From UHGV virus genome UHGV-0351038: 34,385 bases of DNA, one strand, 5' to 3'. This DNA is from a virus. Within the stretch, counting starts at the first letter, position 1. Every line of letters starts with the position of its first letter. The position numbers were made by a program, and so were the translations under genes. The notes below the pieces were generated by a model that searched no databases, was not told where the DNA came from, and saw only the letters and a program-made list of their open reading frames with translations. This document shows positions 17,991 to 24,593 of this stretch, in pieces.

Positions 17991-18242
17991 ATGAGCGAAG
18001 TAGTCATGATTGTCTCTCCCGGTAAATGGGTATCCGAAGAACAGCTAATTGCACTGAAAGGAATAAAAAAGGGAACGCTAAAAAAAGCCAGGGAAAAATC
18101 GTTTATGGAAGGAAGAGAGTATAAGCATGTCGCCCATGACTGTATGCCATGGGATAACAGCCCATGCTTTTACAACCTGGAAGAAATTGACCGCTGGATT
18201 GAGCGCCAGGCATTAGCAAGACCAAGACGCCATCTTACTTGA
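17991..18242 (+). CDS. xis: Excisionase-like protein (Xis)
   Basis: 83-aa basic protein immediately upstream of the integrase; typical int-adjacent excisionase position and size. Confidence 0.6.
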   Translation: MSEVVMIVSPGKWVSEEQLIALKGIKKGTLKKAREKSFMEGREYKHVAHDCMPWDNSPCFYNLEEIDRWIERQALARPRRHLT

Positions 18243-18276
18243 CTAAAAGCCACACTAACCAATGAGAGAAGCTGAA

Positions 18277-19557
18277 ATGAAATATCCGACAGGCGTGGAA
18301 AACCATGGAGGGAAATTGCGTATCTGGTTTGTTTATAAAGGTGTAAGAGTCAGAGAAAATCTGGGGGTTCCTGACACGGCAAAAAACAGGCGCATTGCAG
18401 GTGAGCTGCGCGCCTCTGTTTGTTACGCAATAAAAACTGGTGTTTTCGACTATGCAAAACAGTTTCCCTCCTCACACAATCTGGAAAAATTTGGTGAGGC
18501 CCGACAAGATTTAACCATAAAGGAACTGGCTGAAAAATTTCTGGCACTGAAAGAAACGGAAGTCGCAAAAACGTCACTCAACACGTACCGTGCCGTCATC
18601 AAAAATATTCTGAGCATAATCGGTGAAAAAAATCTTGCATCGTCGATTAATAAAGAAAAATTGCTGGCGGTACGTAAAGAGTTACTTACTGGATACCAGA
18701 TCCCCAAAAGTAATTATATTGTTACGCAACCGGGGAGATCGGCTGTCACCGTAAATAATTACATGACAAATCTTTACGCCGTGTTCCAGTTTGGTGTTGA
18801 TAACGGTTACCTGGCAGATAATCCGTTTAAGGGGATCTCGCCATTAAAGGAATCAAGAACCATTCCTGATCCTCTTTCACGGGAGGAATTTATCCGTCTT
18901 ATCGACGCCTGCAGGAATCAGCAGGCCAAAAATTTATGGTGCGTTTCTGTTTATACAGGCATTCGCCCTGGTGAGCTGTGCGCGCTTGGCTGGGAGGACA
19001 TAGATCTGAAAAATGGAACAATGATGATCAGAAGAAATTTAGCAAAAGATCGTTTTACGGTACCGAAAACACAGGCTGGTACCAATCGGGTAATTCACCT
19101 TATCAAGCCTGCAATCGACGCTCTCAGGAATCAGATGACACTAACGAGGCTGAGCAAAGAGCATATTATTGACGTTCACCTCAGAGAGTTTGGCAGAACA
19201 GAAAAACAAAAATGCACCTTTGTTTTTCAACCTGAAGTGTCAGCGAGAGTAAAAAATTATGGTGACCATTTTACCGTTGACTCAATAAGGCAGATGTGGG
19301 ACGCAGCGATAAAGCGCGCTGGCCTCCGCCACCGCAAATCATATCAGTCGAGACATACTTATGCCTGCTGGTCGCTGACAGCCGGTGCCAACCCGGCATT
19401 CATAGCAAACCAGATGGGACATGCAGATGCGCAAATGGTGTTTCAGGTATACGGGAAATGGATGTCTGAAAACAATAATGCACAGGTAGCCCTGTTAAAT
19501 ACACAGCTAAGCGAGTTTGCCCCAACCATGCCCCAAAACAAGGCGACGCAAAATTAA
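18277..19557 (+). CDS. int: Tyrosine site-specific integrase
   Basis: About 427 aa; C-terminal catalytic region with conserved R (GIRPGELCAL), H-x-x-R (RHTYACW) and terminal Tyr region (MVFQVYGKW). Confidence 0.85.
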   Translation: MKYPTGVENHGGKLRIWFVYKGVRVRENLGVPDTAKNRRIAGELRASVCYAIKTGVFDYAKQFPSSHNLEKFGEARQDLTIKELAEKFLALKETEVAKTSLNTYRAVIKNILSIIGEKNLASSINKEKLLAVRKELLTGYQIPKSNYIVTQPGRSAVTVNNYMTNLYAVFQFGVDNGYLADNPFKGISPLKESRTIPDPLSREEFIRLIDACRNQQAKNLWCVSVYTGIRPGELCALGWEDIDLKNGTMMIRRNLAKDRFTVPKTQAGTNRVIHLIKPAIDALRNQMTLTRLSKEHIIDVHLREFGRTEKQKCTFVFQPEVSARVKNYGDHFTVDSIRQMWDAAIKRAGLRHRKSYQSRHTYACWSLTAGANPAFIANQMGHADAQMVFQVYGKWMSENNNAQVALLNTQLSEFAPTMPQNKATQN

Positions 19558-19948
19558 ACTGTTAATTATCAAATAGTTACTATCAATGACTCTTGAAATC
19601 CATAATTCACAGGTGTTTTTTCTCATCCTGTGGTTTCCTTGGCACTTTCTAGGTTTTTTCAGATAGTTACATTTTTTCAAAAGCATCCTGAGTTCGATCT
19701 TACTATCTATCTGTGGCCTATTTCTGTCCCATATATGCCCCAAAAAACACCCCAACAGATAAGTAGTCTTTTCATGGTGTTACGCGTGAAAACAATAACG
19801 GTCGAAAATTATTCAATACATGCACTCTCGAAATTGCATCAGCCAACCGCAAAACGTTATTTCAAAGCCTACTAGCTGCCTTACTTTTTTCCTCAATAAC
19901 ACGTCGCCAGTAGGAAACAACCTAATCCCTGTTTTGGGCCCCAAAGTT

Positions 19949-19967
19949 GTTAATGATAATCATTTTC
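19949..19967. promoter_or_regulatory. Fur box-like site upstream of sitA (GTTAATGATAATCATTTTC)
   Basis: 17/19 match by eye to the Fur consensus GATAATGATAATCATTATC. Confidence 0.6.
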
Positions 19968-19989
19968 ATTTTGTATAGGTTATGTTATA

Positions 19990-22639: not shown

Positions 22640-23493
22640 TGGCATTATTACTGGAGCCACTGCAGTTCACCTTTATGAGTCACGCACTACTGATTTCACT
22701 GTTAGTTTCCATACCCTGTGCGCTGCTGTCGGTCTTTCTGGTCCTGAAAGGTTGGGCACTGATGGGTGACGCGATGAGTCATGCGGTTTTTCCTGGCATC
22801 GTGCTTGCCTGGATTCTGGGGTTACCTTTGGCTACAGGGGCATTCGTCGCCGGAGTATTCTGCGCGGTGGCGACGGGATACCTGAAAGACAACAGCCGAA
22901 TCAAGCAAGATACAGTGATGGGGATTGTTTTTTCTGGCATGTTTGCCGCAGGTCTGATCTTGTATATTGCAGTCAAACCAGACGTACATCTTGACCATAT
23001 TCTTTTCGGCGACATGCTCGGGATAACCATCGGCGATATAATCCAGACGATGATTATTGCCGGGCTGGTTACACTTGTTATTAGCGTAAAATGGCGGGAT
23101 TTTTTGCTGTTCAGCTTTGATTATCAACAGGCGCAGGTAAGCGGTTTGCATACGAGATGGCTGCATTATGGGCTGCTGTGCATGGTCTCTCTGACCATTG
23201 TGGCGACGCTGAAAGCGGTAGGTATCATTCTCTCCATTTCTCTGCTCATTGCGCCTGGCGCCATTGCGGTACTCCTGACACAACGCTTTCACATTGCGCT
23301 CCTACTGGCGACTGGCATATCGGTAATAGTGTCAATGACTGGTGTCTGGTTGTCCTTTTTTATCGACAGCGCACCAGCTCCGACGATTGTCGTCTTATTC
23401 GCGGTTTTGTTCATCATGACGTTTGCCGTTACCAGCATCAACGCACGCAAAAAGGGAAACTCCCATACACAGGATCTGTTATCACCCAATTAG
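22636..23493 (+). CDS. sitD: ABC transporter permease
   Basis: 285-aa polytopic membrane protein, paralogous to the preceding permease. Confidence 0.75.
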   Translation: MMALLLEPLQFTFMSHALLISLLVSIPCALLSVFLVLKGWALMGDAMSHAVFPGIVLAWILGLPLATGAFVAGVFCAVATGYLKDNSRIKQDTVMGIVFSGMFAAGLILYIAVKPDVHLDHILFGDMLGITIGDIIQTMIIAGLVTLVISVKWRDFLLFSFDYQQAQVSGLHTRWLHYGLLCMVSLTIVATLKAVGIILSISLLIAPGAIAVLLTQRFHIALLLATGISVIVSMTGVWLSFFIDSAPAPTIVVLFAVLFIMTFAVTSINARKKGNSHTQDLLSPN

Positions 23494-23584
23494 CACAATA
23501 TCCGAGGACAGCAACACCCGATACTTTTTCCTGGCTTCCAGCAACGGGGGTTCTTCCTCCGTTGCATATACAGCTCACCTTTTT

Positions 23585-23878
23585 TCACCCACGATTAACC
23601 AACAGCCAGAGCAGCAGACACGCCACCACCGGCACAGCAAAATCCATCAGGCTTGCCACATCCCACGCGCGCGGATCAAAACCGCCCCACCACGGCATAT
23701 TCATTCGCTTGCCATGCCCGAACATTTCAATCCAGCGATATTCTGCCTGGGTGTGTTCACGCGCAATGAAGAACGTACAACCGGCTATCGCCCCGTAAAC
23801 CCAGTTTCCGGTAAAAAGACCAATCAGTACCTGCGCAGCCACAGCACAAAGCGCATGAAGAAAAGGTGTTATATCCAT
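23585..23878 (-). CDS. Small inner-membrane protein (97 aa)
   Basis: ATG start; two or three predicted TM segments; between tail-fibre genes and sit operon. Confidence 0.45.
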   Translation of the reverse strand: MDITPFLHALCAVAAQVLIGLFTGNWVYGAIAGCTFFIAREHTQAEYRWIEMFGHGKRMNMPWWGGFDPRAWDVASLMDFAVPVVACLLLWLLVNRG

Positions 23879-23888
23879 TACTCCTCCT

Positions 23889-24593
23889 TTATCCGATATC
23901 GCTTCGGGAAGTTGATAACAACTTCAATTCTGACTCAAGTTCATCAAATCTTTCAGTCAGTTTCTGGATATGGTGAATCAGTGGAACAACCAGACGTTCG
24001 TACATTACACCTTCGGCAACAAGGCCATTGCTGGAAATAGCTTCCGGTGCATCATCTTCGTTAGCTGATCGCCAGTGTACAAACTGGGGGGCAATTTCTC
24101 CTACTTCCTCGGCAATCAATCCATAGAATCCCCAATCGCGCCTGTCATTTTCGCATTGCGACCTGTACCACACAGGGCGCATCCTGAAAATGAGATCGGC
24201 GTGCTCTGAATCTATCGTCTCTACTGAATGTTTATAGCGGATAGACGATGTTGACCGCAGCACAGACGAAATTGCAGGGTCAGGATTAAGATAAAGGTTT
24301 GCCGCCGCTGTAGTCGTGCCCAATCCCCACAAATAAAACGCTTCACGGCCAGTCAACGGGTAAAAATCTCCACCATAACGACCGCTTTCCAGAGCGTTCA
24401 CTTCCAGTTTGTTTTTCAGCTTATTATCAACTTCAGTTTTTGTGTATCTGGTGCTGATATCCTGCTTTGCACTGGTCATATCAGCCTGAAGCGTTGATAC
24501 TTTTCCGTTAATTGAGGAAATATCTTCCTTGGCTTTACTGACATCTCCCTTTAACGTGGTGATGTCTCCTGGAATTACTGTCGATGTAGCCAT
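23889..24593 (-). CDS. Tail-fibre-associated protein: N-terminal coiled coil plus C-terminal intramolecular-chaperone (peptidase S74-like) domain
   Basis: N-terminus heptad-like (LKGDVSKAKEDISSINGKVSTLQADMTSAKQDI); C-terminal part has ...SSIRYKH... and ...GLIAEEVGEIAPQFV... resembling the chaperone domain of tail spikes/fibres. Not lambda Tfa-like. Confidence 0.4.
   Translation of the reverse strand: MATSTVIPGDITTLKGDVSKAKEDISSINGKVSTLQADMTSAKQDISTRYTKTEVDNKLKNKLEVNALESGRYGGDFYPLTGREAFYLWGLGTTTAAANLYLNPDPAISSVLRSTSSIRYKHSVETIDSEHADLIFRMRPVWYRSQCENDRRDWGFYGLIAEEVGEIAPQFVHWRSANEDDAPEAISSNGLVAEGVMYERLVVPLIHHIQKLTERFDELESELKLLSTSRSDIG

What the first reader, a model, noticed from the sequence alone, without database searches (positions are those of the whole stretch)
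17991..24593. Tail, cargo and int are contiguous in vegetative-phage order, with no host junction at the expected attP position
Read on the minus strand the order is H-M-L-K-I-J-lom-stf, cargo, int, xis, the lambda vegetative map. In an integrated lambda-type prophage the tail/b region and int are at opposite ends, separated by host DNA. Either the window is a phage or circular form, or two prophages sit in tandem, or the integrase uses an att site elsewhere, or the element is a fixed remnant. The att core should be in 19558-19948 or 23494-23584.
Basis: inference. Interest (0 to 1): 0.45.

Follow-up and report, generated by a model that had tools for sequence, protein, structure and literature searches.

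The report
Unintegrated lambda-like phage with intact attP
The interval is the ordinary attachment site, integrase, excisionase and iron/manganese-transporter cargo of a lambda-like E. coli phage, sequenced in its free rather than chromosomally integrated form; both the site and the layout are already described.

Summary
On the minus strand the window reads H'-M-L-K-I-J-lom-stf, then sitABCD, then int and xis, with no host DNA between them.

- **Same phage, integrated elsewhere.** Nine complete E. coli genomes (e.g. AR_0017) carry it as a 46.9-kb prophage in ydfJ. There the sit/tail arm and the int arm lie at opposite ends.
- **attP located.** Aligning their attL and attR with the window puts the common core TCCATAA at 19599-19605, inside an 18-19 bp att similarity at 19592-19609.
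- **attB is real.** The rebuilt attB is intact in 2009 of 5426 complete genomes.
- **attP architecture.** Three exact TGCCCCAAMM arm-type candidates flank the core, and an IHF consensus lies 20 bp upstream.
- **The layout is common.** It also occurs in virion-order phage records (phage 21, mEp460_ev081) and in metagenome contigs.
- **Free phage or tandem array?** The window's left end breaks 4 bp from the lambda-type cos cut and continues into an inverted copy of an internal tRNA segment. That points to terminase-cut virion DNA. A tandem array, seen in 277 genomes for related phages, is not strictly excluded.

The ydfJ att site and phage-borne sitABCD are both published. The finding is ordinary.

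The parts
17991..18242 (+). xis (excisionase, 83 aa)
   Evidence: Pfam PF06806, E 2.5e-30. Annotated xisR/excisionase in AR_0017.
18262..19557 (+). int: heterobivalent tyrosine integrase, 431 aa
   Evidence: PF12167 arm-binding domain at residues 9-71 and PF00589 catalytic domain at 206-397. Aligns to Tn1549 Int with the R, K, R-H, H and Y motifs. The exact protein lies next to rspB/ydfJ' in all 26 long contigs read.
19517..19538 (+). P-arm candidate arm-type sites: two tandem TGCCCCAAMM copies inside the int 3' end
   Evidence: The only three exact matches in 34 kb are at 19518, 19529 and 19736. Conserved in mEp460_ev081 and PhiR42_1.
19567..19579 (+). IHF-consensus match (WATCAANNNNTTR) 20 bp upstream of the core
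   Evidence: One of only two matches in the window. The position is suggestive, but the count is not significant.
19592..19609 (.). att similarity CTTGAAATCCATAATTCA with the 7-bp common core TCCATAA at 19599-19605
   Evidence: attP, attL and attR alignment. The two AR_0017 matches overlap at 19592-19609. Rebuilt attB found intact at 100% identity.
19725..19757 (+). P'-arm candidate arm-type sites (TGTCCCATAT ATGCCCCAAAAAA CACCCCAACAG)
   Evidence: Conserved in related phages.
19949..19967 (+). Fur box upstream of sitA
   Evidence: 17 of 19 matches to GATAATGATAATCATTATC; 0.02 matches of this quality expected in the window. Fur boxes upstream of phage sit operons are reported in PMC6969025.
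20044..23493 (+). sitABCD iron/manganese ABC transporter (moron cargo in the b region)
   Evidence: Pfam ZnuA, ABC_tran and ABC-3 x2. 99% identical to phage 21, ev207 and others.
23585..23878 (-). 97-aa ORF, putative membrane protein at the end of the tail-fibre operon
   Evidence: Same gene in phage 21 (CPT_21_24) and AR_0017. No Pfam hit.
23889..24593 (-). Tail-fibre C-terminal protein with an S74 intramolecular chaperone domain
   Evidence: PF13884. Annotated 'tail fiber domain-containing protein' in AR_0017.
24884..27256 (-). Side tail fibre (stf), N-terminal type
   Evidence: PF08400, E 1.5e-68.
27408..33960 (-). lom, J, I, K, L, M tail genes
   Evidence: Pfam Ail_Lom, the GpJ domains, Lambda_tail_I, JAB+NlpC/P60, Phage_tail_L and Phage_min_tail.
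1..134 (.). Inverted copy of window 5389-5522 (phage ileZ-like tRNA plus 59 bp upstream), joined through a 3-bp microhomology to the phage right end 4 bp short of the cos nick

Best explanation
The interval is the site-specific recombination module (xis, int, attP) and the adjacent b-region cargo (Fur-regulated sitABCD) of a lambda-like temperate phage that integrates into the 5' end of E. coli ydfJ. It was sequenced in its unintegrated permutation.

**How it works.** Int is a lambda-type heterobivalent tyrosine recombinase. It would bind arm-type sites (TGCCCCAA-like, on both sides of the core) and core-type sites. It exchanges strands within the 7-bp overlap TCCATAA (19599-19605) shared with attB, at about codon 30 of ydfJ. 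Integration splits the phage map at that point, so that sit and the tail genes end up next to the 3' part of ydfJ, and int and xis end up next to ydfJ codons 1-29 and rspB. Xis reverses the reaction.

**Why the window looks 'vegetative'.** In the window the two arms are joined, so the DNA was free phage DNA. It was most probably cos-cut virion DNA, because the window's left end stops 4 bp from the lambda-type cos nick.

**Shown and inferred.**
- Shown: gene identities, the att junctions, attB, and the cos break.
- Inferred: the protein-DNA contacts at the arm-type sites and the IHF site, and the physical form of the sequenced molecule.
For: - **Same phage as a prophage.** In AR_0017 and eight other complete genomes, window 19592-25000 matches at 100% next to ydfJ'. 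Window 132-19609 matches at 99.5% ending next to rspB. The two matches overlap at 19592-19609, and the prophage is 46.9 kb.
- **Junction sequences**:
  - attP CTTGAAATCCATAATTCA
  - attR CTGGAAGTCCATAATTCA
  - attL CTTGAAATCCATAAATTCA
- **attB exists.** The rebuilt attB is found at 100% identity in strain CU42ET-1 and is intact in 2009 of 5426 genomes.
- **Int and Xis domains** are present.
- **Arm-type candidates.** The three exact TGCCCCAAMM copies in the window all lie within 230 bp of the core, and they are conserved in mEp460_ev081 and PhiR42_1.
- **Same P-O-P' contiguity** in virion-order records and in 8 IMG/VR or metagenome contigs, four of which carry tail genes and int on one contig.
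- **Broken cos.** Window 135 onward equals the reverse complement of the lambda right end, minus the last 4 nt. AR_0017 has an intact cosN at that position.
- **Literature.** The PPydfJ attP of 18-19 bp is defined in PMC8112680. Qin integration removes 28 N-terminal codons of YdfJ (PMC6379469). sitABCD with a Fur box is on 70% of infant-gut lambda phages (PMC6969025).
Against: - The window alone cannot show the physical form of the DNA.
- A tandem array gives the same P-O-P' junction, and 277 complete E. coli chromosomes contain such a junction for related phages.
- The source record was not found in any collection searched, so its description could not be read.
- The junction at 134/135 is itself anomalous and could be an assembly chimera, which weakens it as evidence.
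- Binding to the arm-type sites and the IHF site is inferred from sequence only.
Confidence: 0.8

Rival explanations
1. The window comes from a bacterial chromosome carrying two copies of the phage, or a phage plus a remnant, in tandem at ydfJ. The junction between the copies is then a regenerated attP.
For: - 277 of 5426 complete E. coli genomes contain a contiguous P-core-P' junction at 88-93% identity.
- In strain TUM9812 it reads int-attP-ydfK-pin-tfa-IS1-rspB'.
- PMC8112680 reports clusters of two to four prophages at ydfJ.
Against: - No complete genome has this phage's int-attP-sit junction contiguous: 0 records cover at least 80% of the query.
- All 26 long contigs that encode the identical Int show int followed by rspB.
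- In a tandem array cos would be intact, whereas the window breaks 4 bp from the cos nick and turns into an inverted internal segment.
Confidence: 0.12
2. Assembly artefact. A lysogen's reads were mis-joined at the short att repeat, so the attP junction does not exist as a molecule.
For: The left end of the window carries an evident chimeric join, so the assembly is not flawless.
Against: - The identical core is only 7 bp, inside 18-19 bp of imperfect similarity. That is too short to mislead an assembler.
- The junction is exactly the attP seen in independent phage records.
Confidence: 0.05
3. The integrase uses an att site elsewhere, or the element is a fixed, non-excising remnant.
For: None found.
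Against: - The att core lies 42 bp downstream of int and matches the junctions of nine lysogens.
- int, xis and attP are intact.
- Apart from one 1.5-kb patch, the phage is nearly identical to the prophage integrated at ydfJ in those nine other genomes, so it has occupied that site by its own att and is not fixed in place here.
Confidence: 0.02

Closest known systems
PPydfJ / Qin-type ydfJ-integrating lambdoid phages (e.g. mEp460_ev081, PhiR42_1; the Qin remnant of K-12)
   Same: - Same Int/Xis type.
- Same attP, with the core and the candidate arm-type sites conserved.
- Same attB in the 5' end of ydfJ.
- Same RecE-type early-left region.
   Different: The b region differs. mEp460_ev081 carries tfa, a Ser recombinase and a hypothetical gene where this phage carries sitABCD. 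Similarity ends at window 19867.
Escherichia phage 21 and the sit-carrying 'Lambda_ev' infant-gut phages (ev207, ev058, 1H12)
   Same: - The sitABCD module, including its upstream region and the 97-aa ORF, is 99% identical over window 19788-23890.
- Same position between stf and attP.
- Same vegetative order: stf, sit, attP, int, xis.
   Different: Phage 21 has a different integrase (380 aa) and a different attP, which targets icd and carries a copy of the icd 3' end. Here the target is ydfJ, and no replacement ydfJ 5' end is supplied.
Phage lambda attP/Int/Xis
   Same: - Heterobivalent Int with an N-terminal arm-binding domain.
- xis immediately upstream of int, and attP immediately downstream.
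- A 7-bp overlap-sized core flanked by repeated arm-type candidates and an IHF consensus.
- Lambda-type cos and tail genes.
   Different: - Different core sequence, and the target lies inside a gene rather than in the gal-bio intergenic site (the lambda attB location is from my own knowledge of lambda, not tested here).
- Int is 431 aa and did not retrieve lambda Int among the solved structures at E <= 0.001. Tn1549 Int was the best hit.

Membership tests
Lambda-type (heterobivalent tyrosine integrase) attP-int-xis module | Integrase with an N-terminal arm-DNA-binding domain plus a tyrosine-recombinase catalytic domain | tested here: met
   PF12167, E 5.5e-24 (residues 9-71) and PF00589, E 1.5e-18 (residues 206-397). 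The alignment to Tn1549 Int shows the R, K, RH, GH and Y motifs.
Lambda-type (heterobivalent tyrosine integrase) attP-int-xis module | Excisionase gene adjacent to int | tested here: met
   The 83-aa ORF 17991-18242 matches PF06806, E 2.5e-30. It ends 19 bp upstream of int.
Lambda-type (heterobivalent tyrosine integrase) attP-int-xis module | A core shared by attP and attB, with attL and attR in lysogens being the reciprocal recombinants | tested here: met
   TCCATAA is common to attP, attL and attR. The rebuilt attB is found intact at 100% identity.
Lambda-type (heterobivalent tyrosine integrase) attP-int-xis module | Repeated arm-type sites on both arms of attP | tested here: met
   There are three exact TGCCCCAAMM copies in the 34-kb window, all within 230 bp of the core: two on the P arm and one on the P' arm, plus degenerate neighbours. 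They are conserved in relatives. Binding by Int cannot be tested here.
Lambda-type (heterobivalent tyrosine integrase) attP-int-xis module | IHF bending site(s) between arm and core | tested here: inconclusive
   One consensus match at 19567-19579. There are only two in the window, but 1.7 are expected by chance.
ydfJ-integrating lambdoid phages (PPydfJ / Qin type) | Integration within the 5' end of ydfJ, removing about 28-30 N-terminal codons and the promoter | tested here: met
   In AR_0017 the junctions lie in ydfJ. The rebuilt attB translates as the YdfJ N-terminus, with the core at about codons 29-31. This agrees with PMC6379469 and PMC8112680.
sitABCD-carrying lambda-like phages | A Fur-box-preceded sitABCD operon in the b region between the tail fibre genes and attP | tested here: met
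   PMC6969025.
Tandem prophage array | Intact cos and a complete second copy or host junctions flanking the attP-type junction | tested here: not met
   cos is broken at 134/135. There is no attL or attR and no host gene in the window. The window is shorter than one phage genome, so host junctions beyond it cannot be tested.

The most novel reading that the evidence does not exclude
The window is a real in-vivo molecule, not an assembly product. On this reading, a terminase-cut right cos end was healed by fold-back priming onto the phage's own ileZ-like tRNA gene 5.25 kb inward. This would give an inverted duplication on a phage, or on an in-situ-cleaved tandem prophage, genome, and would record how broken cos ends are repaired in cells.
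Probability: 0.04. Interest if true: 0.35.

Novelty: already known. Interest (0 to 1): 0.08.

Why it matters
It matters little beyond correct annotation.

- The window should be labelled as free, attP-form phage DNA of a ydfJ-integrating, sitABCD-carrying lambda-like phage.
- The att core should be placed at 19599-19605.
- The case is a useful calibration example. A 'vegetative' gene order in a scan window usually means phage-derived or tandem DNA, and comparison with lysogens resolves it quickly.
- The sit cargo is a known fitness or virulence moron that this phage can move between E. coli strains.

Tried and rejected
- **Exact-pattern scans for the odd 134/135 junction** in IMG/VR, GTDB genomes and JGI metagenomes found nothing. 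The source record stays unidentified.
- **The 36-nt attP pattern specific to this phage** found nothing in IMG/VR. A 37-nt pattern conserved among relatives found 3 viral and 5 metagenome contigs, and none in species-representative genomes.
- **Looking up the spurious minus-strand ORF that spans attP** (82 aa, and its 59-aa Met-start form), to fish out attP-form contigs only, returned nothing on record.
It is contiguous in phage 21 and AR_0017. Rejected.
- **A replacement ydfJ 5' end supplied by the phage**, as phage 21 supplies one for icd, was considered. The phage side of attR gives only an out-of-frame ATG, and PGAP calls ydfJ a pseudogene. Rejected.
- **The promoter and terminator scan of 17800-24700** was no better than shuffled sequence.
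Full report
**Observation.**
- xis lies at 17991-18242 (PF06806).
- int is a 431-aa gene at 18262-19557. It has an arm-DNA-binding domain (PF12167) and a tyrosine-recombinase catalytic domain (PF00589).
- sitA, sitB, sitC and sitD occupy 20044-23493 on the plus strand.
- On the minus strand lie a 97-aa ORF (23585-23878), a tail-fibre C-terminal protein (23889-24593), a 93-aa ORF (24603-24884) and stf (24884-27256).
- The tail genes follow: lom, J, I, K, L and M, then the 3' part of H, which runs off the window.

There is no host gene between stf and int. 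The window holds no direct repeat of 30 nt or more other than the internal repeats of stf.

**What the junction is.**
megablast against 5426 complete E. coli genomes found no genome in which int, the junction and sit are contiguous. It did find nine genomes that hold both halves about 42 kb apart. In AR_0017, the two halves match as follows.
- Window 19592-25000 matches 886307-891715 at 100%, directly next to a 5'-truncated ydfJ.
- Window 132-19609 matches 913712-933189 at 99.5%, ending next to rspB.

Between the two halves AR_0017 has the rest of H, the head genes, the terminase and cos. It is therefore one 46.9-kb prophage whose map is the window's map opened at 19592-19609. The three junction sequences are:
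- attP CTTGAAATCCATAATTCA
- attR CTGGAAGTCCATAATTCA
- attL CTTGAAATCCATAAATTCA

The common core is TCCATAA (19599-19605), within an 18-19 bp imperfect similarity, 42 bp past the int stop codon. Joining the host sides gives an attB that encodes the YdfJ N-terminus, with the core at about codons 29-31. This attB exists at 100% identity in strain CU42ET-1. It is intact in 2009 of 5426 complete genomes, and most of the others are split exactly there. The second interval is only the sitD/orf97 spacer, and it is contiguous in every relative.

**attP anatomy.**
- The motif TGCCCCAAMM has three exact copies in the 34-kb window. Two are tandem copies at 19518 and 19529, on the P arm inside the int 3' end. 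One is at 19736 on the P' arm, with degenerate neighbours.
- From base composition I estimate about 0.3 exact copies expected in the whole window. This is my own calculation. The tool's shuffle figure of 11 refers to matches with one mismatch allowed.
- One of the window's two IHF-consensus matches lies at 19567-19579.
- The core and all these elements are conserved in mEp460_ev081 and PhiR42_1.
- This is the architecture expected for a lambda-type heterobivalent integrase. Binding is inferred, not shown.

**Cargo.**
- Window 19788-23890 is 99% identical to the sit module of phage 21, ev207 and many 'Lambda_ev' phages.
- In the phage 21 virion genome the order is stf, hypothetical protein, membrane protein, sitDCBA, attP, int, xis.
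- A Fur box with 17 of 19 consensus positions lies at 19949-19967.
- Mathieu et al. 2020 (PMC6969025) report sitABCD with a Fur box on 70% of infant-gut lambda phages.
- The P' arm is shared with mEp460-type phages as far as 19867. The sit module is therefore a mosaic insert placed next to a ydfJ-type attP.

**Free phage or tandem array?**
A tandem array would give the same P-O-P' junction, and the phenomenon is real here.
- 277 complete genomes hold a contiguous P-core-P' at 88-93% identity.
- In TUM9812 it joins a full prophage to a Qin-like remnant: ydfK-pin-tfa-IS1-rspB'.
- Nakamura et al. 2021 (PMC8112680) describe clusters of two to four prophages at ydfJ, and define the PPydfJ attP as 18-19 bp.

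Three observations favour free phage DNA.
- All 26 long contigs that encode the identical Int have rspB after int. No complete genome has this phage's attP-sit junction contiguous.
- Related phages assemble in the same vegetative order in virion-order records and in metagenome contigs.
- The window's left end is broken at cos, as described next.

From position 135 the window equals the reverse complement of the lambda right end, lacking only the last 4 nt. AR_0017 has an intact lambda-type cosN at that point. Positions 1-134 are an exact inverted copy of window 5389-5522, which is the phage's ileZ-like tRNA plus 59 bp upstream. The join goes through the 3-bp microhomology ACC. A recessed 3' end that primes on its own strand would give exactly this product. 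The simplest reading is a fold-back or template-switch chimera at a physical, terminase-cut end that was carried into the assembly. I estimate 0.8 for free or virion DNA, 0.12 for a tandem array, and the remainder for artefacts.

**Comparison with the known, and verdict.**
- The module passes the tested defining features of a lambda-type attP-int-xis module, except the IHF site, which was inconclusive. It also passes those of the ydfJ-integrating (PPydfJ/Qin) group. Ramisetty and Sudhakari 2019 (PMC6379469) describe the same truncation of YdfJ by Qin.
- The cargo is the known phage-borne sit moron.
- Apart from one 1.5-kb recombination patch (82 of the 87 mismatches fall in 7000-8500), the phage is essentially identical to a prophage in nine sequenced strains.
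- Nothing here is new. The finding is a correct reading of an ordinary unintegrated phage map. Interest is low.

Noticed in passing
window 1-134 and 5389-5522; junction at 134/135: This is the only long inverted repeat in the window: 134 nt, 100% complementary. The left copy (ileZ-like tRNA-Met/Ile(CAT) plus 59 bp upstream) is fused through the microhomology ACC to the phage right end, 4 bp short of the lambda-type cos nick. It looks like a fold-back or template-switch chimera at a physical DNA end. The junction was not found in any collection searched.
   Followed up: yes
window 7000-8500: 82 of the 87 mismatches to the AR_0017 prophage cluster here, in the DUF968/ydfU-like gene and its neighbours. 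The remaining ~18 kb of that arm has only 5 differences. This is a recombination patch in an otherwise identical phage.
   Followed up: partly
E. coli chromosomes, ydfJ locus (e.g. L024 = TUM9812): 277 of 5426 complete E. coli genomes carry a contiguous attP-type junction of this integrase family, meaning tandem prophages or prophage-plus-remnant arrays at ydfJ. Only 37% of genomes have ydfJ intact at the att position.
   Followed up: partly
window 5210-5286 and 5388-5463 (- strand): Phage-borne tRNA-Arg(TCT) and tRNA-Met/Ile(CAT) genes downstream of the Q antiterminator, like ileZ-argO of Stx phages.
   Followed up: no
window 3963-4298 (+), 9380-10686 (-), 8676-8888 (-): Further morons, by annotation of the identical AR_0017 prophage: iraM (anti-adapter protein), a HAD hydrolase plus NUDIX hydrolase pair, and hokD/rem.
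   Followed up: no
window 26289-26767 (- strand gene stf): Tandem repeats of 189 nt (81% identical) built from 42- and 147-nt sub-spacings, inside the side tail fibre gene.
   Followed up: no
window 165-183 (- strand): A second Fur-box-like match (16 of 19 positions), about 145 bp upstream of the ynfO-like ORF near the cos right end. It is also present in lambda itself.
   Followed up: no
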